Below, in pieces: positions 41,291 through 62,247 of a DNA stretch of 64,000 nt. The DNA is from Escherichia phage JLBYU08. The stretch lies in sequence record OK272482.1; one strand, given 5' to 3'. The position numbers and the translations under genes were made by a program. Positions within the stretch are counted from its first letter, which is position 1, and every line of letters starts with the position of its first letter. Below the pieces are notes generated by a model. That model saw nothing but the letters and a program-made list of their open reading frames with translations. It made no database searches and was not told the origin of the DNA.

Positions 41291-42186
41291 ACCCTCGCAT
41301 AAATTAAACTTGTATCAGTATACTTCTTTAATGGGTAAATATCCTGTCCATAGATGCAATCATTAAACACCTCATCTACCCAAAGGCTACACTTATATCC
41401 CATCATTTCTAAAACACCCATCTCTTCTTCTGTAAACTTATCACCGCTCTTGCAAGATGTCAATACCTCATTCTGAACTCTTGCTACCTCGAAGCGGTTA
41501 TTGGCAATATCGCTATTGGCGATCAAATACTCACCTAGAGGGTGTGCGGCATTAAAGATGCACAGTGGACGGCTGACGTAATAGTCTCCGGGTGTATAAA
41601 AATTGTTGAGGTCTTTCACTAGAACATTCTTATCAGTCACTTCATTTATAACATCATGCATATCGCACATCTTTATATGTTTGAGGATTCCATCCCCCAT
41701 CACAAAATAAAAACTTGCTGAGACACTTTCGGCATAGATCTTACTAGATCCGTTGTAGTTGTATTTTACTCGGATGCTAACGGGGGTTTTTCCTGTCGCG
41801 TTAGCCATCATCCAAAGAAATGGCAGCTCATACTTCTCCTCTGAGGAAACAAAAGGTGAGGTAGCCAGAGATCGAAAACCTCCAGAGAAGTTGAAAGTTA
41901 CAGAACCGCTCCGGCGGTATGATACCGCGTATTCTACTTTTATATCGACGTACCCATTGGAATAGGTGTGTCCTTCATTATCTAAATATGTCCACTTATC
42001 AGACCCAGATACCAATCTACGCTCGATAACCTTCATCACTACAGGAATTAGTGGGTTGGTACAAACCGCTTTTGAAGTAGCTTTATCATCTAAAGCCTCG
42101 TAAATTGCAGAAAGGATGTCCCCAGCTGAAAGATTGGTTGTTATGTCCTGTTTCCACCGCGTACTAAAACTGTTAAGATTTGCCAT
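41287..42186 (-). CDS. hypothetical protein, 299 aa
   Basis: ORF with TAGGAGCA SD; inside the inverted-repeat-bounded segment. Confidence 0.6.
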   Translation of the reverse strand: MANLNSFSTRWKQDITTNLSAGDILSAIYEALDDKATSKAVCTNPLIPVVMKVIERRLVSGSDKWTYLDNEGHTYSNGYVDIKVEYAVSYRRSGSVTFNFSGGFRSLATSPFVSSEEKYELPFLWMMANATGKTPVSIRVKYNYNGSSKIYAESVSASFYFVMGDGILKHIKMCDMHDVINEVTDKNVLVKDLNNFYTPGDYYVSRPLCIFNAAHPLGEYLIANSDIANNRFEVARVQNEVLTSCKSGDKFTEEEMGVLEMMGYKCSLWVDEVFNDCIYGQDIYPLKKYTDTSLIYARV

Positions 42187-42265
42187 AAGTAAGTGCTCCT
42201 ATGTTAGTTTTCTTTCGAATGGGTGCACTATATTGTGGAGTTAGAGTAAAGTCAACACGTTTTTG

Positions 42266-43306
42266 ATGTTGACATCTGTTGAGACAATTGATACGATTTC
42301 TTCACTTACAGAGCACGAGAGACGACTCATGAATCTTGAAAAATATTATACACCAGAAGAGTTAGAGCGCTTGCTCAAAAAATATAGACGCAAACAGAAT
42401 AACGCACGGAAACGAGATATAGAGTTCGACCTGTCATGGGAAGAATACCTCCTATTTGGTAAAAAACTTTTAGGAGATGGAGTATGCGACTATACCCTTA
42501 TACCTTTTGACATGCACACAGATGAAAACGGGCTGGGAAATCCTTTCTACCCATCTCTGGAGCGGATAGATGATGAAGGTCCTTATGCGGTTGATAACTG
42601 TTGTGTGGTGGGATTGAGATGCAACTCTCTAAAGGACTGTCTGGTAGATAAAAAGACTGCAGTCTTGATTAAAGACGAAACTGATCGAAAAATTGTCCAG
42701 CAGATGATGCTCCACCTGAGCGAAGAGCGTATGGAGAAATTGAAAGGTGATTATACTTTTGAAGATTTCATCTTACAATATGGAACGGAAGAGGATAAAC
42801 TAGCACTCTTTGACGAAGAAGAGGAGGAAGATATGCTACCGATGTCTAAAGTTACTTATCGTGCACCCAAGAAGCACATTTCCGACATTGTAAACGAGCC
42901 TATCACAGAAGAGATTGAAGAAATGACGCAACAGGTGCATGAAGAGGAAAAAGAGACTCAGGAGGTCGAAGAGGAGCTTACAGAAGAGGTTCCTGCACTA
43001 CCTGATGATGTTGAGATTGCCAAAGCTTACACTTTCTATTGTCAAACGTTCTACGATGTAGGTATGAAAGTTGATCTGTCGTTCAGCCAATTTAAGAGTT
43101 CGTATATTCGCAAATGCTGTGCTTTAACTGGTGAACGTCTTGGAGCTGGACTTAAACCTCTGTTGGTGACCGACTGGAATAAAGGTTTCACTAAAGGAAA
43201 CTTTATGGTAGTATCTCCAATTATGGAGAAAGCTATGACAGATCTTATGAAGACCACCCGCATGACAATGACCGAGTTGGCAGGTATTTTCAAACACGTT
43301 AAATAA
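42266..43306 (+). CDS. ORF with two tandem copies of a Cys/Asp-rich domain, 346 aa; possibly two in-frame genes, second starting at MSKVTYRA (42842)
   Basis: Both halves carry C-x-(Y/A)-T...(R/T)(I/D)D...G(Y/F)..GN(c/f).V motif; GAGGAGG SD before internal ATGs; no clear SD at annotated start. Confidence 0.5.
   Translation: MLTSVETIDTISSLTEHERRLMNLEKYYTPEELERLLKKYRRKQNNARKRDIEFDLSWEEYLLFGKKLLGDGVCDYTLIPFDMHTDENGLGNPFYPSLERIDDEGPYAVDNCCVVGLRCNSLKDCLVDKKTAVLIKDETDRKIVQQMMLHLSEERMEKLKGDYTFEDFILQYGTEEDKLALFDEEEEEDMLPMSKVTYRAPKKHISDIVNEPITEEIEEMTQQVHEEEKETQEVEEELTEEVPALPDDVEIAKAYTFYCQTFYDVGMKVDLSFSQFKSSYIRKCCALTGERLGAGLKPLLVTDWNKGFTKGNFMVVSPIMEKAMTDLMKTTRMTMTELAGIFKHVK
42837..42865. repeat. 29-bp perfect inverted repeat, right copy
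   Basis: TACCGATGTCTAAAGTTACTTATCGTGCA on plus strand. Confidence 0.85.
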
Positions 43307-43310
43307 TAAC

Positions 43311-43335
43311 AGGGGCCAATGGCCCCTTCTGGAGT
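43311..43335 (+). terminator. possible weak terminator hairpin
   Basis: GGGGCC-AAT-GGCCCC followed by TTCTGGAGTTTT; short loop and interrupted T-run. Confidence 0.35.
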
Positions 43336-43339
43336 TTTA

Positions 43340-44800
43340 ATGGATAGCAGAAGTTCAGAAATCATTGCCTCGCAGAAAGATGATGCCCTGAGAATGTTGC
43401 AGGCTGCACGTATGTATCTCCTTGAAAAGCTGCCGTTCTATGGCACACTACTGTCAGGGTTGCAGTTCGTAGAAAACCACACATGGTGCTCCACCATGGC
43501 AACCGACCATAAACGCATCTATTACAGTCCTGAGTTCATTATGGGATTGGCTGATGAACGCAAGGCTATTCTTAAGGCTTCTCTAACTGACGAGCAGTTT
43601 GAGATGGCTGAAGTTTTCTATTCCCCAAAATCTGTGAAAGAGGTGGCCTTCCTTCTGTCACATGAGGTGGGGCATATTATCTGTGATCACCTAGTCCGTG
43701 GTAAAAGCTTTGAGCCGGAACTGTTCAATATTGCTTGTGATCACGTTATCAACACAGGCCTTGTGGTTGACTTTAGCAAACCTCCTTGTGTTTTCTTCCC
43801 GAAGGGGAAAAGCACTACGTTCGTGAAAGGTAAGCCTTTTGGCTTCTTAGCCAGCTGCTACTGCGACATGAAGTTTCATGGATGGATTGCTGAGAACGTT
43901 TATGCAGTTCTTGATAAGCAAAGAGATCAGAATAACGGTAAAAGTAAGAACGGTAAAGGTGAGAACTCTCAAAGTGATAAGCGACAAACCGATGATCACA
44001 TGAGTGGGAACGGTGGCACCAGTGATAATCTTGGAAAGGCTATGGGGTATGATCAGCCACAACCTGTAATCAGCCAATCTGATAAAGATCAGGCCATGCA
44101 GGACTCTGGTGATATGCTGGAGGCAGCAATGCAAGCGTCCGGAGGCCGTTGCCCTGAGGCGGTGCGTGAGTTTGTCAAGAACAGAGGTAAACCTGTAATC
44201 AACTATATAGACATCATTAAGCAACGCATGTTGTCTAAAAGAAAGGCCGAACTGACCTACAGAAAACCTGGTCGCCGATCTGGGTCTTTGACCAGCACAA
44301 TGCGAAAAGTTGGGGCTATAAACAAGAACCAGCACGTTATTGTTCCTGGTCGTAATCCGGAAAACACTATAGATATTGTGGTGGCTTTAGACGTTTCTGG
44401 CTCGATCTCTCAAAGAACTTTAAAGAAAATGTTCAATGAAATCACCGGATTGTGCAATCTGTATAAAGAGTTTAAGGTTACAATGTTCTGTTGGTCAACT
44501 GAGGTTGGAGAGGTTAAAGTATACACTCGCGGCAACATAGACGAGATGATCAACTATGAGGTCCACTCAACATGGGGCACAACAGCTGCTTGCGTGTTCG
44601 AGCATCTGGATGCCAACATACCTAATGCAAAAGATGTCATCGTCCTGACCGACCTATACTTTGAGCATAACTTTGAACAAAAGGTTGTTGACAACAAGTG
44701 GAAAAAGTACGATACTCTATGGGTCCTCACTGAGGGGTATAATAAAAATTATATCCCGAGCTTTGGGAAAACTGTGGAATTAATCGAGTACGCTAAGTAA
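43340..44800 (+). CDS. putative metallopeptidase (HExxH) plus von Willebrand A domain protein, DUF2201-like, about 486 aa
   Basis: HEVGHIICDH zinc-binding motif in N-terminal half; MIDAS-like VALDVSGSIS in C-terminal half; GGAG SD before internal ATG. Confidence 0.7.
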   Translation: MDSRSSEIIASQKDDALRMLQAARMYLLEKLPFYGTLLSGLQFVENHTWCSTMATDHKRIYYSPEFIMGLADERKAILKASLTDEQFEMAEVFYSPKSVKEVAFLLSHEVGHIICDHLVRGKSFEPELFNIACDHVINTGLVVDFSKPPCVFFPKGKSTTFVKGKPFGFLASCYCDMKFHGWIAENVYAVLDKQRDQNNGKSKNGKGENSQSDKRQTDDHMSGNGGTSDNLGKAMGYDQPQPVISQSDKDQAMQDSGDMLEAAMQASGGRCPEAVREFVKNRGKPVINYIDIIKQRMLSKRKAELTYRKPGRRSGSLTSTMRKVGAINKNQHVIVPGRNPENTIDIVVALDVSGSISQRTLKKMFNEITGLCNLYKEFKVTMFCWSTEVGEVKVYTRGNIDEMINYEVHSTWGTTAACVFEHLDANIPNAKDVIVLTDLYFEHNFEQKVVDNKWKKYDTLWVLTEGYNKNYIPSFGKTVELIEYAK

Positions 44801-44815
44801 GAGAGGAGGTTATTT

Positions 44816-45079
44816 ATGGCAACAGAGTTAAAATTTGCATCAAACCGTAAAACTAAGAAGTATCTGTCCTCAGTAGCTCCAGGCACTGTGGTGATGTTTG
44901 TTGATGAACTTGGGGATGTGAATACAGCACTTGTTGTAAAATCACATCCTGCAAACATATATGTTGGGGTATTTGACCTGTTCAGAAAGGTGTTTGTAGA
45001 ACTACCTCACAGTTTGGTTGTTACAGAAATGGATGCCTGCATAGAAATTCTTGGCGAAGTTATGGTGGAGGAACAATAA
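44816..45079 (+). CDS. small protein, 87 aa; paralogue 1 of a four-gene tandem array
   Basis: Shared pattern MAT..kF.s..k.K.....GtVV...D.......mvvk...fdl...L...kVtE.d..I.iLGE; GAGGAGG SD. Confidence 0.6.
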   Translation: MATELKFASNRKTKKYLSSVAPGTVVMFVDELGDVNTALVVKSHPANIYVGVFDLFRKVFVELPHSLVVTEMDACIEILGEVMVEEQ

Positions 45080-45342
45080 TGGCTACCAGCATTGTATTCA
45101 ATTCTAAGGTGAAGAACAAAAAGCGTGCAGACAGCTTTCCGTGTGGGACCGTGGTAAGTTGCGACGGAGACGGCATTCAAAACATAGTTATGATTGTCAA
45201 AACAGGAGAACATTGTGTGTGGGGGTTCGATTTAGAAAATAATGAGTTGTACGATCTGCCACCAAACATGAAAGTTACAGAGCTTGACACCAAAATTACC
45301 ATCCTTGGAGAGACAAGCTATTCAAAAGAAGGAGGAGAATAA
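45079..45342 (+). CDS. small protein, 87 aa; paralogue 2
   Basis: TAATG coupling; same length and motif pattern. Confidence 0.6.
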   Translation: MATSIVFNSKVKNKKRADSFPCGTVVSCDGDGIQNIVMIVKTGEHCVWGFDLENNELYDLPPNMKVTELDTKITILGETSYSKEGGE

Positions 45343-45605
45343 TGACCACAAAAATCACTATCGCAGAACCGAAAGCTAACACTCAACCTATCGAAAAGTT
45401 TAAGTGCGGTGAGGTGGTAACATTCACACCAGATAATGAAGATGCTAAGATTTTCGCAATGGTCACAGCTGAGTGGATGTGTGACAACACCACACAGGTT
45501 CTGCGTTTTGACACCTATCTTACCGATGAAATCAGGAACGACAAGATTGTGACTGGTGTGGATACTGAGATTGTTTTCTACAAGAGCTTTTTAGAGGGTT
45601 TCTGA
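45342..45605 (+). CDS. small protein, 87 aa; paralogue 3
   Basis: TAATG coupling; same length and motif pattern. Confidence 0.6.
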   Translation: MTTKITIAEPKANTQPIEKFKCGEVVTFTPDNEDAKIFAMVTAEWMCDNTTQVLRFDTYLTDEIRNDKIVTGVDTEIVFYKSFLEGF

Positions 45606-45606
45606 T

Positions 45607-45840
45607 ATGGCAAAAATTCGTAAATTATCTAGCAATCAGGTTGTGAAAGACTTTGAATCTGGAGAGATTCTTTATGTTCGTGATGCAGATGACGAAGGTG
45701 AAGATCTCGTTATGTTGGTGGGGCACGCTGAGGACGGATGCATCCAAGCTGTTTTTCTTGAAACAGCTATGGTGCACTGGATAGAGCTGGACCTGAAAGC
45801 ACGAAAACCTAAAGCAGAAATCCTGATTTACGAAGATTAA
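45607..45840 (+). CDS. small protein, 77 aa; divergent paralogue 4
   Basis: Coupled start; similar size; weaker motif match. Confidence 0.5.
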   Translation: MAKIRKLSSNQVVKDFESGEILYVRDADDEGEDLVMLVGHAEDGCIQAVFLETAMVHWIELDLKARKPKAEILIYED

Positions 45841-45855
45841 TAAAAGGAGAGAGCC

Positions 45856-46305
45856 GTGTTGAGCAAACGTGAATGCGACAGCATTAGCCTGAATTCTTAT
45901 AAGAAACAATGGTTTGGGGTAGAAGTTTGCCGACTGCGGCTAGGCTCCTACCTGAACTTCGTTTATTATGAGAGTGACAGTCGTATCGTTTCTTATGAAG
46001 TGTTCTACACTAAGAACACCTTCGAACTGCGCCGTAAAGTGGATGGCGGGAGAACTACCGCCCAGAATAATTGGGAAACTATTCTGCCTCCAGATGTTAT
46101 AGGAAGCCCCCTGAATGTATCTGAAGATGAAAATCTTATGGTTCATGCTATGATGGGACTTGACAGCTTAGAGCTGGCGATCTATGATATGTCCATAGAA
46201 GCAGTTAAGCTGGACTACATCGAAAACACTTTAGAGGAAGGTATCAAGAAGTTTCTCAGTGAGAAATTAAAAGACCACTTTCATAAGGAGCTATATCTGT
46301 TATGA
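45856..46305 (+). CDS. hypothetical protein, 149 aa, GTG start
   Basis: AAAGGAGAGAG SD before GTG. Confidence 0.55.
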   Translation: MLSKRECDSISLNSYKKQWFGVEVCRLRLGSYLNFVYYESDSRIVSYEVFYTKNTFELRRKVDGGRTTAQNNWETILPPDVIGSPLNVSEDENLMVHAMMGLDSLELAIYDMSIEAVKLDYIENTLEEGIKKFLSEKLKDHFHKELYLL

Positions 46306-46547
46306 AGACCCGTAAAGAACGTAACAAAATTTTACCTGGAGCTCTCGAACACCTGATGAAGTGCAGATCTATTTGGCACTCTGCCAAGGAAGGGCAGAAG
46401 GTGGTTGTGGTTAGTGACAATACCAACCCGTTTGGAGATTATACCACCATGATGGCCCCATATGTCCGTGATGGCGTTGTAGAAGTGGTCCCTTACAACG
46501 GTTTGCATGAACGGCACTTTGAAAGCACTTTGCTAGTGGAGCTATAG
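46302..46547 (+). CDS. hypothetical protein, 81 aa
   Basis: ATGA coupling. Confidence 0.55.
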   Translation: MKTRKERNKILPGALEHLMKCRSIWHSAKEGQKVVVVSDNTNPFGDYTTMMAPYVRDGVVEVVPYNGLHERHFESTLLVEL

Positions 46548-46549
46548 TC

Positions 46550-47116
46550 ATGGCGGTCAATGTGGCTTACAACACAGGAAAGCTTGACAGAGACATTGGG
46601 TGTCTTGTCCTTTCAGATACAGAAGAGTATTGGGGTTATGGGTTGCTGTCAGACCCACACCCGAGCAACCTTGTATCAACAGTGCTATACCGCTACGACC
46701 CTGTGCCAACGGTACACGACAAAGACATTCACGACCTTCGGATCAAGTGTCTGGAAGATCTGCTGAACAATGGTTGCAACGATCTGCGGGTAGCCAAGGA
46801 GAAGCTTACAAACATTCACAAAGAGGAAGTGATGAGTACCCTCAGTAAAAGATCAGTGCACAAAAAGACGATGCTGAACTTTGCAATGGGTATCTACATG
46901 GATGGGTATAAGGGAGGGGATCCGATCCTCAAGCTTCGCTGCCCGACACTGTGGGAAAGAGTGGTTGACAGTAAGGACGGTACTGCCCTGCTCGAACTCC
47001 ACACTGCAGGTTGGATTTGGAGGTATGTAGACGGATACCCTCTGTGGGCATGTGGACCTGGGGAATTTGTTGACAGACCTAGCGCTGTGGTGGACTTACT
47101 ATTGCAGTTTGAATAA
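46550..47116 (+). CDS. hypothetical protein, 188 aa
   Basis: ORF with GGAGCT SD. Confidence 0.6.
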   Translation: MAVNVAYNTGKLDRDIGCLVLSDTEEYWGYGLLSDPHPSNLVSTVLYRYDPVPTVHDKDIHDLRIKCLEDLLNNGCNDLRVAKEKLTNIHKEEVMSTLSKRSVHKKTMLNFAMGIYMDGYKGGDPILKLRCPTLWERVVDSKDGTALLELHTAGWIWRYVDGYPLWACGPGEFVDRPSAVVDLLLQFE

Positions 47117-47173
47117 AAAGGTGAGTTATAAGGTATTCATACACCTACCAACAATACAACAGGAGAGACTAAG

Positions 47174-47449
47174 ATGACGAAAGAAGAGGCCGACGTATTA
47201 GATTTTGCACTAGAGGCTACGCAGGAGGCTTTGGTGTTAGCTTGGAAAATGAACCAGCGTGCTGCAGAATGCAACCGCCGCATCAATGAGATCTTGGGCA
47301 TGTCTATGTATGATTTCACCATGCATGCCGGAGAGATTCCTGAATTAACTGCCGAGATGAATGATCTTGACGATAAAATTAATATCATTCTGAAGACAGC
47401 AGAAACAACTCACCAAACCGCCCGTAAATTTATCAACGAGAAGGTGTGA
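47174..47449 (+). CDS. hypothetical protein, 91 aa
   Basis: ORF with GGAGAGA SD. Confidence 0.55.
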   Translation: MTKEEADVLDFALEATQEALVLAWKMNQRAAECNRRINEILGMSMYDFTMHAGEIPELTAEMNDLDDKINIILKTAETTHQTARKFINEKV

Positions 47450-47918
47450 ATATGGACTACAGCTACTGCGGGGAAGAAGTCCCTTTTAATTACAGCAATC
47501 TTACCACGAGCAATCCATATGAGACTCGCCACGGCACGCACATCATTGCCATCGACTTTGATGGAACGTTTAATGCGAGCCCTTTCATCTTCTCCCGCCT
47601 GATCAGGGATCTGAAGAAGGAGGGGGGTGGACAGTCTACCTTGTGACTTTCCGATTCATTACTCAAGACAATGTAGACATTGAGTATTGGCGCAAGGAGC
47701 TCGATGTTGGTGTGTTCTACACAGGTGGTGTTCAGAAGGCAGCCTACCTGGCGCAGTTTGATATCTACCCAGATATCTGGATTGATGATTCTCCGGCATG
47801 TATTCCGGCTAAGAATCAGTTAGAGTTTGCAATGAAGGAGATTGAGTATAAGTCTGAGGCTAAGCGGAACGGATGGCCCTTTATTATTGAAGATTACCCA
47901 GATCCTGAACCGGAGTAA
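47446..47918 (+). pseudogene. HAD-like phosphatase/nucleotidase gene split into two frames at a G6 run (47622-47627)
   Basis: N-terminal ORF carries HAD motif I (IAIDFDGT); downstream -1 frame carries K and DD motifs (DIWIDDSP); the two frames overlap only across the homopolymer. Confidence 0.5.
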
Positions 47919-47923
47919 GAGCC

Positions 47924-48094
47924 ATGAGGCGAAGATATCATTACCTGATGTGGAAGTTATATCAAAATGCTGCCAAAGCCTATCATACCATGTTTGGCAA
48001 TGACGATCACTACATCATGTTACATCTCACCGCTATTGAGCATCACAATGAGTGGATTCATGCAATCGTGGCAGGTGATAAAGACTTTAAGTAA
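47924..48094 (+). CDS. hypothetical small protein, 56 aa, His-rich
   Basis: ORF below track cutoff with GGAGTAAGAG SD. Confidence 0.35.
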   Translation: MRRRYHYLMWKLYQNAAKAYHTMFGNDDHYIMLHLTAIEHHNEWIHAIVAGDKDFK

Positions 48095-54982: not shown

Positions 54983-55030
54983 TGTGTTCTCCAGATAAGA
55001 AAACCGCCCCGTCAGGAGCGGTTAGATATA

Positions 55031-56776
55031 TTAACGTTGTGCAATTACTACGTCTACGATATCACCAACACCACAATACGTTAATTGCAGCAAGGTAACA
55101 CTGTTAGCCTTGTTGTTAATAACAGGTGTTGCCGACAGGATAGCATACTTATCGTGCAAAGTCACGTTGTGACCTACAGCATCCTGAATTACATAGATAA
55201 CCGCAGTGAATGGATAAGGTTTATCTTCCGCTGATGTCCCAGGCCACTGTCCTATTGTAAAATCCCCTTTCGCGTGAACAACATACATACTGGCCTGCCC
55301 GTTAGGTGTCCATGTCCCACTGGACGCGTCAACCTCCTCTAAATCAAAATCTACCTTTCCTGCGTGGAAAGTAGGGGCAGTAATGGTTTTACCCGCCTCA
55401 ATTTCTTGAGAGGTGGTTATCTTGCCACTGGAGTTAATGCCATTACAGACAAAGTTGACATTAGAGAAGTCAGGCAACCACCCAGTCACCGTGCCGGATA
55501 TTTCAAGGTTGTGAACAGAGGTGGTGCCAGTCCCTGCTGCGTTTAAACTGACATCTCCATTTACCTGCAAGTTGCGGGTAACGTTGCAGTTTTCAGAGTT
55601 TGCAGTTGTTGCAGTTAAAGTGGTTGTTGTCAGCTCGGTAATTACACCTTTGTTGGCTGTAAGCCCTTCTCCTTCAAAAGTTGCACGCTCATTGACTCTT
55701 AAGGTATTCAGAGCTATGTTTTGGATAGAGGCCGTACCTCGAATAACTACAGACCCGCCAACCTCCAAATCGCCATTTATCAATGCATCACCAGTGCTTT
55801 CAATATAGCTAGGGTAGATCATGGTGCCATCGACAGAGTATGTTATCCCTGTAACGGTACCTGTCACCTCAAGGTTCTTAACCCTGGTGGTCCCATCTAC
55901 CTGCAATGTCGGTTCGGTTGCTGCCTTCATGGCATTACCACGAATGTACACGTAGTCAAAAAAGTTATTACCCAGACCATCAAAATGCACATCGTTATTA
56001 TTAGCCACTGGTTTCCCAGAAGTTATAGTGTCAGCTATAACCCTGTGGGTGGACACTTCATGAGGTTGCAGCTCTGTACTTCTCCAGTCTGCATGCTTAG
56101 GATCGCTCCACGCAAAAGTAAGTGTAGAAGTATTTGCCGTGAGGATTAGATTCCTAAAGCGTGCAGTAGAATCTGCCCCATTAACAGGTCCATGTAAGGT
56201 AAGGGTGCCACCAACTATAGTGTTAGCGAGTTCTGTAAGACCTTTTACCACCAAAGACCCTACAGTAACTTTCATCCCCTCCATGGCTTTAAATATGCTA
56301 TCAACATAGTCAACAACAAACTCTGTGTTTGCTATGGACTCTGACTTATCGTCCATTGGAGGTGTAGGTACTCGTGGGTCACCTTCGAACCTCGGGCTGT
56401 TAAGTTTTGCGTAGTATTTTGCCATTACTGCAGAGTCGGTATATAATCTCCAGTTTGGAGATTGTGAAGGATCTGCTGGCATTCTAACCGGGTTAGATTT
56501 TGATGCTGCGGGAGCGTACCACCACTGAGGGCCTGTGTCCCCTTTAAACTCGTACAGCTGGTTAAAAACTGTTGTGGATGCACCATACGCCCAAGGGATC
56601 GGTGGCGTTTTAAAATAAAGGTTGTCAAGCATGGCTTTTCGTACCGTAGGGATGGTGGTCCCATCCTCTACGACAACTTCATCCACAGCGTTACCGTTGA
56701 CAACCAAGTGCAAACGTTCAGAATCAACAATTACTTGATCTACCGCCTGCTCAAAGCTTGTCATGTCTTGCGCCAT
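55031..56776 (-). CDS. tail fibre or tail spike-like protein, 581 aa
   Basis: Thr/Gly/Asn-rich repetitive beta-type composition; position in tail module. Confidence 0.6.
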   Translation of the reverse strand: MAQDMTSFEQAVDQVIVDSERLHLVVNGNAVDEVVVEDGTTIPTVRKAMLDNLYFKTPPIPWAYGASTTVFNQLYEFKGDTGPQWWYAPAASKSNPVRMPADPSQSPNWRLYTDSAVMAKYYAKLNSPRFEGDPRVPTPPMDDKSESIANTEFVVDYVDSIFKAMEGMKVTVGSLVVKGLTELANTIVGGTLTLHGPVNGADSTARFRNLILTANTSTLTFAWSDPKHADWRSTELQPHEVSTHRVIADTITSGKPVANNNDVHFDGLGNNFFDYVYIRGNAMKAATEPTLQVDGTTRVKNLEVTGTVTGITYSVDGTMIYPSYIESTGDALINGDLEVGGSVVIRGTASIQNIALNTLRVNERATFEGEGLTANKGVITELTTTTLTATTANSENCNVTRNLQVNGDVSLNAAGTGTTSVHNLEISGTVTGWLPDFSNVNFVCNGINSSGKITTSQEIEAGKTITAPTFHAGKVDFDLEEVDASSGTWTPNGQASMYVVHAKGDFTIGQWPGTSAEDKPYPFTAVIYVIQDAVGHNVTLHDKYAILSATPVINNKANSVTLLQLTYCGVGDIVDVVIAQR

Positions 56777-56785
56777 GATTTCTCC

Positions 56786-57052
56786 TTAAGCTTTTTGCTC
56801 TTCGTTTTTAACGTGGTCAGGGTGCTGGCAACCCCATCGGAGCGAGATGAATTTGCTAATAAGCTGGGGGCAAGCTACTGAAGGCGCGTATATCCACGCA
56901 TACCATTCAGGAAGCGTATCATTATACCCCATATGAATAAACACCCCAGTCATCACCGCCATGCCTATGTTCGACCATAGCTTATTTTGGGACACTTTCG
57001 TAGGGTCATCAGATGCCGCAACCAGTCCCCATAAAAACTGAGTTAGTTTCAT
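56786..57052 (-). CDS. small membrane protein, 88 aa (holin-like features: hydrophobic core, charged C-terminus)
   Basis: Hydrophobic segments and charged tail; function not established. Confidence 0.45.
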   Translation of the reverse strand: MKLTQFLWGLVAASDDPTKVSQNKLWSNIGMAVMTGVFIHMGYNDTLPEWYAWIYAPSVACPQLISKFISLRWGCQHPDHVKNEEQKA

Positions 57053-57063
57053 TTACCCTCTTT

Positions 57064-58110
57064 TTAAGCATAAGATATAGTGATCCATTGACCATTTACA
57101 AGTTTTTGGATAGCACCTGTCCAGTAATCACCTTGATAAGGGTGTTTATAAGCGTAGTTACCAGAGCACATCACATGTCCAGGGTAGACTCTTGACTCTC
57201 TGTAGGTGGTTTTGAAACGGTTTGCTATCCTTACATCATCAACCCCTCTGCTGGGCATAGGGATAGTAAGGTTACCACTACTGTCTGCGCCGTTACCATT
57301 TACCCTGCGGACCACGTTTCTTCCGCCAACTGTTGCATATTGACCCCTGACTGTTTCATCGTTACAATCAACTCTTCCACCTATTTGAGCGCTTCCGCAG
57401 GATTGTTGTCCGTTAACAGTGGCTCTTGGTATCGTGACCGCATTGGCATTTGCAGAGTAACTTTTTGCATCGTTGCATTCAAGATTTCCTTGGATAGCCA
57501 GTCTTGCACGGTTGGCAGTTATAGCATTGAGCTTCATAGCCGAAAACACAGGCTGCCCACCAGAAGGTTGAAATCTCCAACGGAACCCGTCTATTTGGTG
57601 AGAAGGATCATCAAGGTCTGTGCCGTCAGCACCACCGATGTTGTCCATAATCCAGAAGTCCATCGTCGTCTTGTCTGGAGTTATGGTGGTATATATTGCC
57701 GCATTGTCTGTTGACGCAGATGCAAACTCGATTCTTTGAATGCCTAAAGTTTGAGTCTGAGTCATTATGTCTCCAGACTTGTCAACATACAGATCGTCCA
57801 TTTCTTCAGGCGAGTATACATTGAGAACTTGACGTGCAGCAGCTTTGTCTGGAACGTCTGCTAGATTATTAGTGACCCTTAAGAATCTATTATCCCATCC
57901 TGGGACAACATCTTCTGTTAAATGCTTTAACCACGCAGAAAGCATGTGAAGTTCAAAGTTAACAACTTCACATGCCACTCTTTGTGTCATATCCCAACCT
58001 TTCAATCTCTCTTCTTTTTTTGGTTGAGACTTATTCAACTCTCCCGTATTTTCAAGCACAACATCCTGATTGGCCCAAATATCAAGAGGGATAACTGGTT
58101 TAGTCATCAC
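57064..58110 (-). CDS. tail fibre / receptor-binding protein, paralogue B, 348 aa
   Basis: N-terminus (PLDIWANQDVVLENT) and C-terminus (QKLVNGQWITISYA) shared with 59122..60162; central part divergent. Confidence 0.7.
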   Translation of the reverse strand: MMTKPVIPLDIWANQDVVLENTGELNKSQPKKEERLKGWDMTQRVACEVVNFELHMLSAWLKHLTEDVVPGWDNRFLRVTNNLADVPDKAAARQVLNVYSPEEMDDLYVDKSGDIMTQTQTLGIQRIEFASASTDNAAIYTTITPDKTTMDFWIMDNIGGADGTDLDDPSHQIDGFRWRFQPSGGQPVFSAMKLNAITANRARLAIQGNLECNDAKSYSANANAVTIPRATVNGQQSCGSAQIGGRVDCNDETVRGQYATVGGRNVVRRVNGNGADSSGNLTIPMPSRGVDDVRIANRFKTTYRESRVYPGHVMCSGNYAYKHPYQGDYWTGAIQKLVNGQWITISYA

Positions 58111-58196
58111 GTTCTCCTGAGAAAATTCCTTAGGACTATTTTAACACTTTAGGGAACAAAATGCAAGAACGGAGTCCTTTCCGTTCTGACCTTTGT

Positions 58197-58511
58197 TTAC
58201 CTTTTACTATGCTCTACGAGCATGTGCAAAATCTTTTGTACATCGGCTCTGATGCCGGAGACATCTGTCCTGACATCCTGCTTAAGGTCGTTAATATCGG
58301 CCTCTAGCTTGCTTAACCGGGTCTCTATAACGGAATCAAGTTTATCTTTTGTAACCATACTGTTTTTCACTAAGATGAGGTCTTTCTCCAGCTCTTCCAA
58401 CCTCTTGGAAATGCCTTTCCATTTGGTGTGCCACTGGTTGAAAGCCCATACACAGATCGGGACAACGGTACCCATGCAGATACCGTACAATGCCGCCAAA
58501 TCCAACTCCAC
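58197..58511 (-). CDS. membrane-anchored coiled-coil protein, 104 aa
   Basis: N-terminal hydrophobic helix followed by heptad-like charged region. Confidence 0.5.
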   Translation of the reverse strand: MELDLAALYGICMGTVVPICVWAFNQWHTKWKGISKRLEELEKDLILVKNSMVTKDKLDSVIETRLSKLEADINDLKQDVRTDVSGIRADVQKILHMLVEHSKR

Positions 58512-58522
58512 AACACCTCCTC

Positions 58523-59107
58523 TTAGAGGGTAGGTCGCTCCGGGAAGAAAATGTCAGGGGCTTTAGATGTATCTATTTCAAGAAGTTTTACCCTGTACAT
58601 TTTCAAATCTCTGATGTTACGTTTCTGGTCATCAGTAAGATCATATTCAAGGTCAATCATGTCTTGATAGGCACCAATTCTAGCAGTAGCCCAAGCAAGT
58701 TCTGTCTCTATGACACCCTCTGCCTGTTGAACAAAGAATTCATTGTCTGTGACAAATTCATCACCAACTAAACGCAAAGCGTCGTGGTGAAGCATAATGT
58801 TTTCTGGTACCTCTTCTTTTTTGGCGATAACCACACGAAGACCTGGAGCAGGCCATAAGGCATCAGGTTCTTCTGTAGATGTCTTAAGAATTCCCTTCTC
58901 GTCAACAAGTAGGAAGATACACCCTGGATTTTCTTGTCGTAATGTTCGTGACTGCACATACCAATCACCATCATCATTACGTAAAAAATACCCAGTGTAT
59001 GCGGTGTAATCCTCGACCTCTTGAGGGGTCAGCTCCTTGGTTTCCTTGTTGGAGTGGTATTCGCCAGATCCCGGTTGGTAAAGTTTAAACTCTTGAAGTA
59101 TTTTCAT
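58523..59107 (-). CDS. tail fibre assembly chaperone (Tfa-like), 194 aa
   Basis: C-terminal ...YRVKLLEIDTSKAPDIFFPERP resembles the conserved Tfa C-terminal motif; immediately downstream of a fibre gene. Confidence 0.6.
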   Translation of the reverse strand: MKILQEFKLYQPGSGEYHSNKETKELTPQEVEDYTAYTGYFLRNDDGDWYVQSRTLRQENPGCIFLLVDEKGILKTSTEEPDALWPAPGLRVVIAKKEEVPENIMLHHDALRLVGDEFVTDNEFFVQQAEGVIETELAWATARIGAYQDMIDLEYDLTDDQKRNIRDLKMYRVKLLEIDTSKAPDIFFPERPTL

Positions 59108-59121
59108 GCTAGTCCTCCGAT

Positions 59122-60162
59122 CTATGCATAATTAACAGTGATCCATTGACCATTTACAAGTTTTTGTAAAGGTCCTGCCCAGTAGGTTGAACCACGCATC
59201 TCTTTTTTGTCACCGAAACGCCAGCCTGTGACAACGTATCCGTTGCGGATTGGAGATTCAGAAACGCCGTCCACAAGTCTTGCACCGATTCTGATGTCTT
59301 GCACACCTGTCTGCGGGATAGTGATCGTTACATCACCGTTACCGTTAGCCGTCACTCCATTCACGGAGCGCACCACATTTCTGTTACCGACAACACAGTG
59401 CTGGCTTCTTACAACCATACTGTCACAACTTGCACCACCATTAACATATACTGACCCAGCCGTCAACTGACTGGCCACATTACAGTTGGTGAATGTTGCT
59501 GTATTGCTGATAGTAAGGTTATTGCACCTCATGTTATCGACAACTTCAACATTGCCTACCACTTTCAACAGCGCACGATTAGCCGTGATCGCGTTAAGGT
59601 ACATCAAAGTGAACTCTGGATTAATATCCGGCTGAGTTGGCTGGAATCTCCAACGAAACGCATCTACTGTAGATGTACCACCATCATCAAACGACCCGGT
59701 ATTATCACTTAACCCAAAGTCGAGGGTTGTCTTATCTGGGCCAATAGTTGTCTCTATCCAAGCCTTATCTGTCTCGGCAGCTTTAAAGTTGATACGTTGC
59801 AACCCCAAGGGGCCTGTCATTGTATCACCTGTAACTTTTACATACCTGGCGTCTGCCTCTTCCTTAGTGATAATCCCAAGGTTTCTACGGGCAACAGGAA
59901 TGTTCAAAAGATCGCTCAAGTTATTATCACGTACCAGATAACGGCCTTCTTGAGCTGGGATCTGCTCGTCAGCAATGTATTTTGCCCAAGTCCCGAGCAT
60001 ATTGAAAATATAGTTAAGTTCTTCACATGAGGGCTTTTGACCAAGATCCCAACCTTTTCTCCACAAATCATCAATCGGGCGTAGCCTGTTCTGTCTGTGG
60101 GTGTTAGGCAGAACCTGATCCTCCTCTGCCCAAATCTCTAATGGAAAACTAGGTTTTGACAT
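59122..60162 (-). CDS. tail fibre / receptor-binding protein, paralogue A, 346 aa
   Basis: Shared termini with 57064..58110 (ends QKLVNGQWITVNYA). Confidence 0.7.
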   Translation of the reverse strand: MSKPSFPLEIWAEEDQVLPNTHRQNRLRPIDDLWRKGWDLGQKPSCEELNYIFNMLGTWAKYIADEQIPAQEGRYLVRDNNLSDLLNIPVARRNLGIITKEEADARYVKVTGDTMTGPLGLQRINFKAAETDKAWIETTIGPDKTTLDFGLSDNTGSFDDGGTSTVDAFRWRFQPTQPDINPEFTLMYLNAITANRALLKVVGNVEVVDNMRCNNLTISNTATFTNCNVASQLTAGSVYVNGGASCDSMVVRSQHCVVGNRNVVRSVNGVTANGNGDVTITIPQTGVQDIRIGARLVDGVSESPIRNGYVVTGWRFGDKKEMRGSTYWAGPLQKLVNGQWITVNYA

Positions 60163-60174
60163 TTTATCTCCTGA

Positions 60175-62247
60175 TTATGAGAAGTCTGGCGGGACAACAT
60201 CTTCTACATACCCTTTCAGAGCAACCTGCCCCATATGAAGCACGGTAGAATCTCTAGCGGTAACAGTGATGCTGTCAGACATTACTTGCGGGTATGCCCA
60301 CACATACTGTTTTACCTCAGGATATCTATACTCTATAGTTGCCATGTTTCCGCAAATACATCTCCATAAAAATTCTTGGTAATTCCTGGTTGGGTCGTAA
60401 CCATATACCGGAGCAAGCTCTTTACTAGGAACGAACCCTGCAAGGTATTGTATTTCAGACGGTTGCCAACCTAACTTAACGATAGGTATGTTTACAGACT
60501 CTTTTGCCTTTTCAATACCTCCCTGCATCACCCAATCGTAGCACTCGGTGCAGAAGAAATCAAGAGCACCTGCTTCCTTTTTATATTGGTCAGCAAGGTT
60601 AAGCTTTTGCGTAAGCTCGGTTTCCATAATGGTTGGGAAAAACAGCAGAGCTGTCATCTGAGCTGATGCAGCGTGTGCCTTTATTGCCTTTGAAATAGCC
60701 GCAATACGAGCGCCAAGCTTACCACGACAAAATGCTACATACTTATCGTAAACACCGCCAGTTTTAGGATCGTCAATAGTCCCAATATCTAATGCATACT
60801 CGCCTGTCTCATCATAAAACGCCTGTTTTGTAGGGTAATCATAAATACAAGGTCTACGAGTATCGGTATTGTACCACCACCACGGTTCACCAACCTGCAT
60901 AATCACTGGCAGGTTGTTTCTCATAGCGGCTGATGCAAAATTCTTAAATACTGCAGTAAGGAAATTCATACCCTCTTCAATGGTTGGAGACAGGAGGTAG
61001 CTACAAGGTGTATACCCTGTTTTAGCGTAGTTATCGTTCCAGTCTCTTTGGGTCCATTCCAACGGGCAGGCATCGCTGAAAAGCTCAAAACTTACAGATT
61101 GCATAACGTCGAAGTTATGTCGTTTGGCATTGTACATAAAATCATCATGCCATTTATAAGCTGCAGCGTTTAGCGCTCCTGTTCTGTTTATAGACCATTG
61201 GGTTCCTGACCATGTGTAGTCATAATAATGACTCATACCAACATAATGGTTTATGGTTCCGGTATAGCCCAGACGCTTGATATTGTTCAACACCCTTAAA
61301 GGAGACACGTTCCACATATCGTCATATGCGGTGCAGATCCCAACATCGTGCTCTCTCACCTGGATATTGTTAAGTTGCATCATTTTCCAGCCTGTGTCTG
61401 GCTGAAGCAGATCTAGGCGCAACTCACACTCTACATTTTCCGTTCTCGGGTCTGTGCTATTACTTACCCAGTCTTTAGGCATAAGCGGTATTAAAATCCT
61501 TCTCACCTGCCGAGGATCAACACCCATCATGTTGTTGTTCTGGTCCATCCCGACGCAGTCCTCAAAATCAATATGAATTTCTGCAACATTCTTATCCTCT
61601 GAGATGCTGACAGCATATTGAGCTAAAGGAACATAGATGATTGTGCCATCAACAAGGTCTACAGTCATAATCATCTTTTCAGGAGTGGAGAAGTTGCTGG
61701 CGTTGGTTATTGACATTCTGAACCAAAGCTTGGTGTTTCTCATCTCATAGTGATCATCAAACCCAATACCGAAATGGTCATACTTGTCAACTGTTTCCCA
61801 AATGCACCCAGCCATACCTCCATATGTTCTTGACACTAAACGGTTAATACAACAGTTGTTATCTGCAACAATACAGGTACTTTCAGTCTGCTGAGTGGTT
61901 GTAACCCAATATCTTGGGTGAAACATTCTCTCCTCAACAGTATCCCAAGATATCCTGTCAAGATTCTCATCTGAAACTATTGTACATTTCGCCCTTTGTG
62001 TTCCAATCATCACCCCTTGAGATTTTGATGAAAACTCCATAAAGAAGCTTCTTGGCAACCTGTTGGGTAATTTGTCAACAATTTCCACGGGGATCTCAAT
62101 ACTGGTTGCCCCAACTGGGATAGTTACATCGCCCTCAACATGATCATAATCCCTACCAGGAACGGCAGTATCCTGAACTGTTCGGTAATGAAACCGTGCA
62201 GCCATTGTAGAGTAATCACGGTAAGGTTTAAAAACAGCTGTTGCCAT
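60175..62247 (-). CDS. tail or baseplate structural protein, 690 aa
   Basis: Large ORF in the tail module; TAATG-style coupling to upstream gene. Confidence 0.65.
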   Translation of the reverse strand: MATAVFKPYRDYSTMAARFHYRTVQDTAVPGRDYDHVEGDVTIPVGATSIEIPVEIVDKLPNRLPRSFFMEFSSKSQGVMIGTQRAKCTIVSDENLDRISWDTVEERMFHPRYWVTTTQQTESTCIVADNNCCINRLVSRTYGGMAGCIWETVDKYDHFGIGFDDHYEMRNTKLWFRMSITNASNFSTPEKMIMTVDLVDGTIIYVPLAQYAVSISEDKNVAEIHIDFEDCVGMDQNNNMMGVDPRQVRRILIPLMPKDWVSNSTDPRTENVECELRLDLLQPDTGWKMMQLNNIQVREHDVGICTAYDDMWNVSPLRVLNNIKRLGYTGTINHYVGMSHYYDYTWSGTQWSINRTGALNAAAYKWHDDFMYNAKRHNFDVMQSVSFELFSDACPLEWTQRDWNDNYAKTGYTPCSYLLSPTIEEGMNFLTAVFKNFASAAMRNNLPVIMQVGEPWWWYNTDTRRPCIYDYPTKQAFYDETGEYALDIGTIDDPKTGGVYDKYVAFCRGKLGARIAAISKAIKAHAASAQMTALLFFPTIMETELTQKLNLADQYKKEAGALDFFCTECYDWVMQGGIEKAKESVNIPIVKLGWQPSEIQYLAGFVPSKELAPVYGYDPTRNYQEFLWRCICGNMATIEYRYPEVKQYVWAYPQVMSDSITVTARDSTVLHMGQVALKGYVEDVVPPDFS

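What the first reader, a model, noticed from the sequence alone, without database searches (positions are those of the whole stretch)
56786..58511. Small membrane proteins embedded between tail-fibre genes
An 88-aa protein with hydrophobic segments and a charged C-terminus (holin-like features) and a 104-aa membrane-anchored coiled-coil protein sit among fibre genes rather than in a lysis cassette. They could be lysis components, fibre assembly factors or superinfection-exclusion proteins.
Basis: inference. Interest (0 to 1): 0.4.

Follow-up and report, generated by a model that had tools for sequence, protein, structure and literature searches.

The report
Probable missing holin of rV5-like phages
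Two small membrane-protein genes wedged between tail-fibre genes of an rV5-like E. coli phage are real and conserved. The 88-residue one belongs to a protein family that in many other phages sits between the cell-wall-degrading enzyme and the outer-membrane-disrupting genes, which makes it the best candidate for the lysis-timing "holin" that nobody has identified in this phage group.

Summary
The window is a Vequintavirus (rV5-like) genome, 99.8% identical to rV5_ev146.

**Observation.** Both ORFs exist as described:
- p88 (56786-57052, minus strand) corresponds to rV5 gp29.
- p104 (58197-58511, minus strand) corresponds to rV5 gp31.
- They flank the short-tail-fibre paralogue STF2.

**p104.** It has a strong N-terminal transmembrane segment, predicted N-out/C-in, followed by a heptad-periodic helix of about 70 residues.

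**p88.** It is a weakly hydrophobic, aromatic-rich two-helix hairpin with a charged tail.
- It belongs to PHROG 1322, which has 149 clusters at 50% identity. A few members touch Pfam DUF2644.
- Some family members carry an extra N-terminal transmembrane segment.
- Among 95 unique viral loci, the family gene lies immediately after an endolysin in 21 loci, spanning four enzyme families. In 19 of these 21 the gap from endolysin stop to family start is -10 to +9 nt.
- It lies immediately before an Rz-like spanin in 18 loci.
- In 28 of the 31 loci with either neighbour, it is the only small ORF with two or more helices within 2.5 kb.

**Why a holin is needed.** The endolysin of rV5-like phages is lambda-R-like and has no export signal, so a holin is required. 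Three papers report that none could be identified.

**p104 relatives.** p104 has remote relatives (hhalign 86-95%) in Mu-like lysis-to-terminase regions that also carry a p88 homologue.

**Verdict.** The holin-like reading is supported by context, not proven. The rivals are superinfection exclusion and fibre assembly. Interest is moderate.

The parts
56786..57052 (-). p88 (rV5 gp29 equivalent). Small two-helix membrane-hairpin protein of the phrog_1322 / DUF2644-related family, and a probable holin. Predicted N-in, C-in with a short acidic periplasmic loop and a charged C-terminal tail.
   Evidence: - ORF and RBS.
- phrog_1322 at 5.2e-31.
- Family size and 3-TMD variants.
- AlphaFold2 helices 3-10, 21-43 and 46-71, with low pLDDT of 60-64.
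- Charge distribution.
- Lysis-cassette context of homologues.
58197..58511 (-). p104 (rV5 gp31 equivalent). Bitopic inner-membrane protein with an N-terminal TMD (residues about 5-23). Predicted N-out/C-in, with a cytoplasmic coiled-coil-type helix of about 75 residues. Possible lysis-timing partner of p88.
   Evidence: - ORF and RBS.
- phrog_5345 at 6e-48.
- KD 1.91.
- Heptad pattern and flanking charges.
- Always follows the fibre-assembly gene in relatives.
- Remote homologues in Mu-like lysis-to-terminase regions.
57064..58110 (-). STF2, the second short-tail-fibre paralogue, lying between the two small genes. It occupies the slot that in other Vequintavirinae genera holds a 152-157-aa polytopic membrane protein (phiTE_239 family).
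   Evidence: - phrog_4465 at 2e-165.
- 43% identical to STF1, with near-identical C-termini.
- phiTE_239 family present in 107 phage records, none of the listed hits an rV5-like phage.
58523..59107 (-). Tail-fibre assembly protein (Caudo_TAP, Mu gpU-like), immediately upstream of p104.
   Evidence: - Pfam PF02413 at 9e-12.
- phrog_136 at 2e-36.
- The BASEL paper relates this locus to Mu S/U.
58166..58187 (-). Terminator-like hairpin in the 86-nt gap between p104 and STF2. It may be a partial terminator separating STF1-TFA-p104 from STF2-p88-LTF.
   Evidence: Consensus scan. Pattern match only.

Best explanation
Both ORFs are real late genes for inner-membrane proteins that act in host lysis rather than in the virion.

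**p88.**
- It is a class-II-type holin candidate: two membrane helices, N- and C-termini in the cytoplasm, and a charged C-terminal tail.
- It would accumulate in the inner membrane during late gene expression. At a set time it would permeabilise the membrane, so that the signal-less lambda-R-like endolysin encoded elsewhere in the genome reaches the cell wall.
- The Rz/Rz1-type spanins encoded next to the terminase would then break the outer membrane.

**p104.**
- It is a membrane-tethered cytoplasmic coiled-coil protein, predicted N-out/C-in.
- Its most likely role is as an accessory that tunes this step, as an antiholin-like or releasin-like partner.

**Placement.** Sitting in the tail-fibre operon gives late timing, as in T4, where the holin gene t directly follows tail-fibre genes 37-38.

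**Shown:**
- the genes, their conservation and their architecture;
- the lysis-cassette position of p88 homologues in other phages;
- the absence of an export signal on the endolysin.

**Inferred:** membrane insertion and topology, hole formation, any p88-p104 interaction, and late expression.
For: **1. Family context in named phages.**
- In the Mu-like Pseudomonas phage Bise the order is Mor - M15 endolysin - phrog_1322 (1.2e-19) - spanin-like genes - TerS.
- In the Mu-like Ralstonia phage YO098_1 the order is Mor - endolysin - phrog_1322 (4.4e-22) - Rz-like spanin with an embedded lipoprotein ORF.

**2. Family context in IMG/VR (95 unique loci).**
- 21 loci have an endolysin immediately upstream, from four PHROG families.
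- 18 loci have an Rz-like spanin immediately downstream.
- The gap from endolysin stop to family start is -10 to +9 nt in 19 of the 21.
- Only 3 of the 31 loci with either neighbour have another small ORF with two or more TMDs within 2.5 kb.

**3. Holin-like architecture across the family.**
- 149 clusters share two helices and a variable charged tail.
- The N-terminal region is net positive in 78 of 85 members, and the loop is net negative in 64 of 85.
- About 20 clusters add a strongly hydrophobic N-terminal TMD, giving a class-I-like form.

**4. Need for a holin.**
- The Murica endolysin is lambda-R-like with no TMD or SAR (signal-anchor-release) segment.
- The holin is reported as not identified in LL12, Gotham and KPP-1.

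**5. Breadth.** The p88 family is conserved across Vequintavirinae genera, phi92-like phages and beyond (390 records). The previously proposed holin gp129 is found only in the rV5-like genus (115 records).

**6. Not seen in virions.**
- No gp29 or gp31 peptides were found in the stored part of the rV5 virion MS file.
- In CB7, products 32-35 went undetected while the flanking fibres were detected.

**7. p104.**
- An HMM of its family picks out only 7 of 3,825 ORFs in these loci.
- hhalign gives 86-95% probability, above all 30 shuffled controls.

**8. Precedent.** The T4 gene order 37-38-t(holin) was verified.
Against: **Against p88 as the holin.**
- It is only weakly hydrophobic on the KD scale, and TMHMM/Phobius found no TMD in rV5 gp29.
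- It matches no Pfam holin family. The AlphaFold2 models are of low confidence.
- In this phage it is not next to the endolysin or the spanins.
- Another plausible holin exists: the gp129 homologue has two strong TMDs and a basic tail. In Certrevirus, CB7_82 next to a SleB-like hydrolase has been proposed instead.
- Some family members sit in non-lysis contexts, for example a lone opposite-strand gene among replication genes in Menderavirus and next to the baseplate wedge gene in phi92-like phages.
- Neighbourhood alone cannot separate a holin from an antiholin or another lysis accessory.

**Against the p104 lysis link.**
- It rests on one remote-homology link, to which the TMD contributes. 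One shuffled control reached 72%.
- p104 shows no relation to Mu gp25/DUF2730.
- Its invariant position after the fibre-assembly gene fits a fibre role equally well.
Confidence: 0.5

Rival explanations
1. Superinfection exclusion or immunity. p88 (two helices) and p104 (one TMD) would act like T4 Imm and Sp, or like the receptor-masking proteins encoded next to receptor-binding genes (T5 Llp, phi80 Cor). They would block DNA entry or adsorption of further phages.
For: - They are small inner-membrane proteins embedded among receptor-binding-protein genes.
- PHROG places phrog_1322 in the 'moron / host takeover' category.
- The sizes and TMD numbers resemble T4 Imm and Sp (own knowledge, not tested).
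Against: - Both genes are conserved across genera whose fibres and receptors differ, for example flagellotropic phiTE and LPS/ECA-binding rV5. Receptor-masking genes normally co-vary with the receptor-binding protein.
- There is no lipobox or signal peptide.
- They sit in a late structural operon, whereas exclusion needs early expression.
- PADLOC gave no meaningful hit.
- Homologues sit inside lysis cassettes of Mu-like phages.
Confidence: 0.12
2. Membrane-associated tail-fibre morphogenesis factors. p104 would be a membrane-tethered coiled-coil co-chaperone, in the manner of T4 gp57A, acting with the Caudo_TAP protein on the short fibres. p88 would be a further assembly factor for the neighbouring fibre.
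For: - A p104 homologue immediately follows the STF and fibre-assembly genes in Vequintavirinae, phi92-like phages and the Acinetobacter phage ABPH49.
- The predicted topology puts the coiled coil in the cytoplasm, where fibres fold.
- Neither protein was seen in virions, as expected for chaperones.
Against: - p88 homologues occur in lysis cassettes, and in replication modules far from any fibre gene.
- The p88 position relative to fibre genes differs between subfamilies.
- STF1 and STF2 have near-identical C-termini, so the single Caudo_TAP protein could serve both.
- Remote p104 relatives in Mu-like phages lie next to terS, not next to the fibre genes.
Confidence: 0.2
3. p88 is lysis-associated but is not the holin. 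The real holin would be the gp129-type protein (two strong TMDs), or a CB7_82-type protein. p88 and p104 would be antiholins or timing regulators, or they would serve a second peptidoglycan hydrolase.
For: - The gp129 homologue has KD peaks of 2.4 and 2.5 and a basic tail. It was proposed as the holin by the rV5 authors.
- CB7_82 was proposed in Certrevirus.
- 3 of the 31 lysis-context loci carry another small two-TMD ORF beside the p88 homologue.
Against: - gp129 is restricted to one genus at tblastn sensitivity and lies in a non-late gene block.
- The Center for Phage Technology (CPT) annotators did not accept it as a holin.
- In 28 of the 31 lysis-context loci, the p88 homologue is the only small multi-helix candidate.
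Confidence: 0.15

Closest known systems
Class II holins (for example phage 21 S68: two TMDs, N-in/C-in)
   Same: - About 70-90 residues, with two membrane helices joined by a short periplasmic loop.
- Cytoplasmic termini and a hydrophilic charged C-terminal tail.
- Homologues of p88 are translationally coupled to endolysin genes.
- One or both helices are weakly hydrophobic.
   Different: - No detectable sequence relation to any Pfam holin family.
- No dual-start motif.
- The gene lies in a tail-fibre operon.
- The cognate endolysin is soluble lambda-R-like rather than SAR-type, so a large-hole holin rather than a pinholin would be needed.
- Function is untested.
T4 holin T (gene t, directly downstream of tail-fibre genes 37-38)
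   Same: Both are large virulent myoviruses with scattered lysis genes. In both, a lysis membrane-protein gene is appended to the fibre and fibre-assembly genes.
   Different: T is 218 aa with one TMD and a large periplasmic domain. It has no homology to p88 or p104.
Mu gp25 'releasin' (DUF2730; PMC9239132)
   Same: - p104 has the same build: about 100 aa, an N-terminal TMD predicted N-out/C-in with only about 4 periplasmic residues, basic residues at the membrane-cytoplasm junction, and a helical cytoplasmic domain of about 75 residues.
- Remote p104 relatives occupy the gp25-like position, two genes before terS, in some Mu-like phages.
   Different: - No homology: hhalign 1.8% and 0.2%, and Pfam DUF2730 hits gp25 but no p104-family member.
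- The rV5-type endolysin has no SAR domain to release.
Pfam DUF2644 (PF10841) / PHROG 1322 'membrane protein'
   Same: p88 is a clear phrog_1322 member. 7 of 144 family representatives reach DUF2644 (best 6.3e-7). A metagenome annotation uses that name.
   Different: p88 itself does not score against DUF2644. Neither family has an assigned function, and no paper in the library mentions DUF2644.
T4 Imm/Sp and T5 Llp / phi80 Cor (exclusion proteins)
   Same: They are small envelope proteins. Llp and Cor genes lie beside receptor-binding genes.
   Different: No lipobox, predicted late operon, conservation independent of receptor type, and homologues inside lysis cassettes.

Membership tests
Holin (functional class) | Small integral inner-membrane protein with at least one TMD | tested here: inconclusive
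   - Two conserved hydrophobic helices, weak on KD (1.0-1.05) but favourable on the Wimley-White octanol scale.
- None of 219 control stretches is similar.
- TMHMM/Phobius were negative in the rV5 paper.
- 3-TMD variants support membrane embedding.
Holin (functional class) | Hydrophilic, highly charged cytoplasmic C-terminal tail | tested here: met
   The tail after the conserved RWG motif is about 40% charged (family median). It varies widely in length and sequence.
Holin (functional class) | Gene adjacent to the endolysin or spanin genes | tested here: not met
   - In this window, p88 lies between fibre genes. The endolysin and spanins are tens of kilobases away in the related Murica genome.
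- The feature is met for homologues: 21 loci with an endolysin upstream and 18 with a spanin downstream.
- T4 shows that the feature is not obligatory.
Holin (functional class) | Late expression; lethal, timed permeabilisation of the inner membrane that releases endolysin | not testable with these tools
   Only position in a structural, presumably late, operon is known. No expression or physiology data are available.
Pfam holin families (Phage_holin_*) | Profile match above threshold | tested here: not met
   No holin family matched p88 or any of 144 family representatives.
PHROG 1322 | Profile match | tested here: met
   5.2e-31 over the full length. All 144 representatives match.
Pfam DUF2644 (PF10841) | Profile match | tested here: inconclusive
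   p88 gives no hit. 7 of 144 relatives hit, best 6.3e-7.
Releasin / DUF2730 (Mu gp25), for p104 | Sequence membership in DUF2730 | tested here: not met
   Pfam hits Mu gp25 at 2.5e-13 but no p104-family member. hhalign gives 1.8%.
Releasin / DUF2730 (Mu gp25), for p104 | N-terminal TMD with N-out/C-in topology, a minimal periplasmic part and a basic junction | tested here: met
   The N-flank (MELD) has net charge -2 and the C-flank +4. The same pattern holds in Vequintavirinae homologues. This is a prediction only.
Releasin / DUF2730 (Mu gp25), for p104 | Paired with a SAR endolysin and encoded within a few genes of it | tested here: not met
   The endolysin of the related Murica genome has no hydrophobic N-terminus and is encoded far away.
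Two-component spanin (i-spanin), for p104 | N-in/C-out TMD with a periplasmic coiled coil, plus an adjacent or embedded o-spanin lipoprotein gene | tested here: not met
   - The predicted topology is the opposite.
- No lipobox ORF is embedded or adjacent.
- Bona fide Rz/Rz1-type genes lie next to the terminase.
Receptor-masking lipoproteins (Llp/Cor type) | N-terminal signal peptide with a lipobox; co-variation with the receptor-binding protein | tested here: not met
   There is no N-terminal lipobox in either protein. Both are conserved across genera with different fibres.

The most novel reading that the evidence does not exclude
phrog_1322/DUF2644 would be a large, uncharacterised holin family with two-TMD and three-TMD forms, used both by Mu-like transposable phages and by roughly 140-kb rV5/phi92-type myoviruses. 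It would travel together with an N-out/C-in coiled-coil partner (the p104 family) that forms a new two-component lysis-timing module. That partner would be functionally analogous to the Mu releasin but would act with a soluble endolysin.
Probability: 0.25. Interest if true: 0.6.

Novelty: new member of a known kind. Interest (0 to 1): 0.45.

Why it matters
rV5-like (Vequintavirinae) and phi92-like phages are among the most frequently isolated coliphages and are widely proposed for therapy and biocontrol. Their lysis-timing gene is nevertheless unknown. Several genome papers state that the holin could not be found, and the two published guesses differ between genera.

This work names a conserved, testable candidate and a possible partner. 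It also shows that the same family fills the holin slot in many Mu-like phages. Together these make the question directly testable by inducible expression and by knockouts.

If confirmed, it would give a function to a family of unknown function (PHROG 1322 / DUF2644). It would also improve lysis-gene annotation for hundreds of phage genomes.

Tried and rejected
- **Pfam and NCBIfam scans.** Scans of p88, p104 and their homologues gave no informative family. p104 gave only coiled-coil noise: XhlA, Gp58, EzrA and similar.
- **DUF2644 label.** It could not be reproduced for p88, nor for P0084 and P0107, which had precomputed hits. Only 7 of 144 distant relatives hit it.
- **p104 against the Mu gp25 releasin.** Rejected as homologues: hhalign 1.8%, no DUF2730 hit.
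- **p104 against the Bise 92-aa protein (phrog_462).** Rejected: 0.35%. The weak PHROG cross-hits were coiled-coil similarity.
- **p104 as an i-spanin.** Rejected on topology, on the lack of an o-spanin partner, and on the presence of real spanins elsewhere.
- **Genome-contig scan with the p88 alignment.** It returned a single locus, because the pattern was too strict. Two narrower sub-alignments worked.
- **AlphaFold2 of p88.** With both shallow and deep alignments it gave only pLDDT 60-64. I therefore ran no fold search, since matches would be meaningless.
- **PADLOC.** Nothing relevant.
- **phiTE cryo-EM paper.** It does not mention the three membrane proteins, and its supplements are not held.
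- **phi92 2012 paper.** Not held.
- **rV5 virion MS file.** No p88 or p104 peptides were found, but the stored file may be truncated, so this is weak negative evidence.
Full report
**What the window is.** A 5.2-kb stretch around the finding is 99.8% identical to Escherichia phage rV5_ev146 and to CarlMeissner (Bas48). It is 95% or more identical to about 100 other Vequintavirus genomes.

The gene order on the minus strand is:
- baseplate genes;
- a 690-aa fibre protein with a TIM barrel;
- STF1 (59122-60162);
- a Caudo_TAP fibre-assembly protein (58523-59107);
- p104 (58197-58511);
- STF2 (57064-58107/58110);
- p88 (56786-57052);
- a 581-aa fibre (55031-56776);
- a 1,878-aa fibre.

In rV5 numbering, p88 is gp29 and p104 is gp31.

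Both ORFs have good Shine-Dalgarno sequences and match dedicated PHROG families over their full length: phrog_1322 at 5e-31 and phrog_5345 at 6e-48.

- **p104.** Its N-terminal segment has a Kyte-Doolittle (KD) mean of 1.91. This is higher than any of 10,948 windows from the long ORFs of this window. The remaining roughly 70 residues keep a single heptad register for most of their length, with 71% hydrophobic a/d positions against 24% elsewhere. They contain no proline and are 39% charged. An acidic N-flank (MELD) and a basic C-flank (+4) predict N-out/C-in, which puts the coiled coil in the cytoplasm. The same pattern is seen in homologues from other Vequintavirinae genera.
- **p88.** It is less clear-cut. 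Its two hydrophobic segments reach only KD 1.0-1.05, and the rV5 authors listed no transmembrane domain (TMD) for gp29. However, the segments are rich in Trp, Tyr and Phe and are favourable on the octanol scale. They are conserved across the family, and no control 88-aa stretch (0 of 219) has two such segments. AlphaFold2 gives a helical hairpin (helices 21-43 and 46-71) plus a short N-terminal helix, but only at pLDDT 60-64.

**Synteny in relatives.** In other Vequintavirinae genera (Hena1, phiTE, a metagenomic contig) the order is: STF, fibre-assembly protein, p104 homologue, a 152-157-aa polytopic membrane protein (the phiTE_239 family, whose start overlaps the p104-homologue stop), p88 homologue, large fibre.

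- The polytopic protein occurs in 107 phage records, and none of the listed hits is an rV5-like phage. In rV5-like phages its slot is occupied by the STF2 paralogue.
- In phi92-like phages the p104 counterpart (109-113 aa) still follows the fibre-assembly gene. The p88 counterpart has moved to just before the baseplate wedge gene.
- The pair is therefore ancient in this supergroup. p104 is tied to the STF and fibre-assembly genes; p88 is not.

**The lysis situation in these phages.**
- The endolysin of the closely related Murica genome is a lambda-R-like enzyme (GH24 in the Murica annotation) with no hydrophobic N-terminus. It therefore needs a hole-forming holin.
- Rz/Rz1-type spanins sit next to the large terminase gene.
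[quoted passage not shown] The same is said for Gotham and KPP-1.
- The rV5 paper proposed gp129, 78 aa with two TMDs. Its Murica homologue does have two strong TMDs, but tblastn finds it only in rV5-like phages (115 records).
- For Certrevirus CB7, a different 65-aa protein next to a SleB-like hydrolase was proposed.

**Key result: where p88 relatives sit in other phages.**
- tblastn found a distant p88 relative in the Mu-like Pseudomonas phage Bise. [quoted passage not shown]
- A second Mu-like phage, Ralstonia YO098_1, has: Mor-like activator, endolysin (phrog_873), phrog_1322 (4.4e-22), Rz-like spanin (phrog_1403, 5e-45) with an embedded lipobox ORF, then a DksA-like protein, and so on to terS.
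- A profile search of 1.84 billion representative proteins found 149 clusters, and all 144 representatives scanned match phrog_1322. They share the motif SHTK-[FL]-W-x-N before helix 1, a second helix ending in SK-x-[LI]-S-[LM]-[KR]-[YW]-G, and a charged tail of very variable length.
- About 20 clusters add a strongly hydrophobic N-terminal TMD (KD 2.1-3.1) followed by basic residues. This gives a three-TMD, N-out/C-in form, which argues that the two weaker helices are membrane-embedded.
- None of the representatives matches a Pfam holin family. Seven match DUF2644.

**Neighbourhood counts.** Two scans of IMG/VR gave 152 loci, 95 of them unique. Neighbours were clustered, and cluster representatives were labelled with PHROGs.

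| Measure | Count |
|---|---|
| Endolysin immediately upstream on the same strand | 21 loci (phrog_2649 x11, amidase phrog_822 x5, phrog_894 x3, phrog_435 x2) |
| Rz-like spanin immediately downstream | 18 loci |
| Either neighbour / both neighbours | 31 / 8 |
| Gap from endolysin stop to family start of -10 to +9 nt | 19 of 21 |
| Another small ORF with two or more TMDs within 2.5 kb | 3 of 31 |

Association with several unrelated endolysin types, tight coupling, and being the only small multi-helix membrane protein in the cassette together make the standard argument for calling a holin.

These counts are lower bounds. My gene calling was crude, and the loci were retrieved with sub-alignments biased towards Mu-like and three-TMD members. 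Many three-TMD members sit alone on the opposite strand in large genomes, as in Stenotrophomonas phage Marzo. That context is neutral.

**p104.**
- It shows no relation to the Mu releasin gp25/DUF2730 (hhalign 1.8%; Pfam hits gp25 only). It shows none to the Bise 92-aa protein either (0.35%). The resemblance to the releasin is architectural only.
- An HMM of the p104 family found just 7 of 3,825 ORFs in the IMG/VR loci. [quoted passage not shown] They lie two genes upstream of terS in Mu-like contigs that also carry a p88 homologue downstream of an endolysin (L160-163, L166, L170, L171).
- hhalign gives 86-95% probability (E from 4e-8 to 5e-6). Thirty controls with the TMD kept and the rest shuffled gave a median of 11% and a maximum of 72%.
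- So p88-like and p104-like genes co-occur in the lysis-to-packaging region of one kind of small transposable phage, and in the fibre operon of the large rV5-type phages. This is suggestive of a functional pair, but it rests on one remote link.

**Virion data.** No peptides of gp29 or gp31 appear in the stored rV5 MS file (the file may be truncated). In CB7 the fibres on either side (CB7_31, 36, 37) were detected, but products 32-35 were not. This fits non-structural proteins, although small membrane proteins are easily missed.

**Precedent for the location.** In T4 the holin gene t starts 20 nt after fibre-assembly gene 38, which follows fibre gene 37. A lysis membrane protein appended to a late fibre operon is therefore not odd for a large virulent myovirus with dispersed lysis genes.

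**Weighing the explanations.**
- I put about 0.5 on the lysis reading as stated: p88 as holin or a closely related lysis-timing protein, with p104 as a probable partner.
- Within that, 'p88 is the holin' is about 0.45, and 'p104 acts in lysis' is about 0.35.
- Fibre assembly is the main rival for p104, because of its fixed position after the fibre-assembly gene.
- Exclusion is less likely, because both genes are conserved irrespective of receptor type, lack lipoboxes, and sit in a late operon.
- gp129 as the true holin, with p88 as a regulator, remains open.

**Novelty and interest.** The genes are already annotated as 'membrane protein' or 'hypothetical'. The kind of system (holin, lysis accessory) is well known. 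What is new is the link between an uncharacterised family (PHROG 1322 / DUF2644-related) and the holin slot, and its assignment as the candidate for the holin that is missing in rV5-like and phi92-like phages. This is useful and directly testable, but it would not surprise a specialist. Interest: 0.45.

Noticed in passing
window 57064-58110 (STF2), compared with L003:5306-5779 and L004:5330-5788: In rV5-like phages a second short-tail-fibre paralogue (43% identical to STF1, with near-identical C-terminal residues) occupies the slot that in other Vequintavirinae genera holds a 152-157-aa polytopic membrane protein (phiTE_239 family, phrog_7451 / PF26221). That protein is translationally coupled to the p104 homologue and its function is unknown. 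In size and TMD number it recalls P2 LysA (own recollection, untested).
   Followed up: partly
window 58166-58187, minus strand: A terminator-like hairpin followed by a T-rich tract lies in the 86-nt gap between p104 and STF2. A stronger one (55002-55023) follows the 581-aa fibre gene. Together they suggest that STF2-p88-LTF581 may be a separately regulated or separately acquired unit.
   Followed up: no
window 58107-58110: The start of STF2 is ambiguous: GTG at 58110, or the adjacent ATG at 58107. Public annotations use the ATG (347 aa).
   Followed up: no
window 60175-62247, minus strand: The 690-aa 'lateral tail fibre' combines an N-terminal Calx-beta domain with the N-terminal and TIM-barrel domains of non-contractile tail sheath proteins (PF23844/PF23845, 4e-80). 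This is an unusual domain for a myovirus fibre.
   Followed up: no
public records matching window 55000-60200: Sixteen records labelled 'Campylobacter phage' (host Campylobacter jejuni) match; the three listed are 98.5-98.6% identical to this E. coli rV5-like sequence. They look like mislabelled or contaminant E. coli phages.
   Followed up: no
L019:1913-2140 (Murica, outside the window; rV5 gp129 equivalent): A 75-aa protein with two strong TMDs (KD 2.4 and 2.5) and a basic tail is the previously proposed holin. It is restricted to the rV5-like genus. It sits near a 154-aa protein with a C-terminal TMD that is annotated in Murica as a possible virion structural protein; a similar 151-aa protein in rV5 (gp133) has MS evidence.
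   Followed up: partly
L010:6906-7004, L011:1463-1561 (phi92-like metagenomic contigs): A conserved 32-aa ORF overlaps the start of the p88 homologue in phi92-like contigs. Not examined.
   Followed up: no
L018:3590-3811, L171:5440-5655, L161:5895-6092: Mu-like contigs that carry p88 homologues also encode a 65-73-aa protein with an N-terminal coiled coil and a C-terminal TMD (phrog_1103) directly before terS. This is another uncharacterised small membrane protein in the lysis-to-packaging interval.
   Followed up: no
window about 42000-48000: GC skew changes sign over this interval (positive from about 42 to 48 kb, negative elsewhere). This is consistent with a block transcribed from the opposite strand. 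No tRNA genes are present in the window.
   Followed up: no
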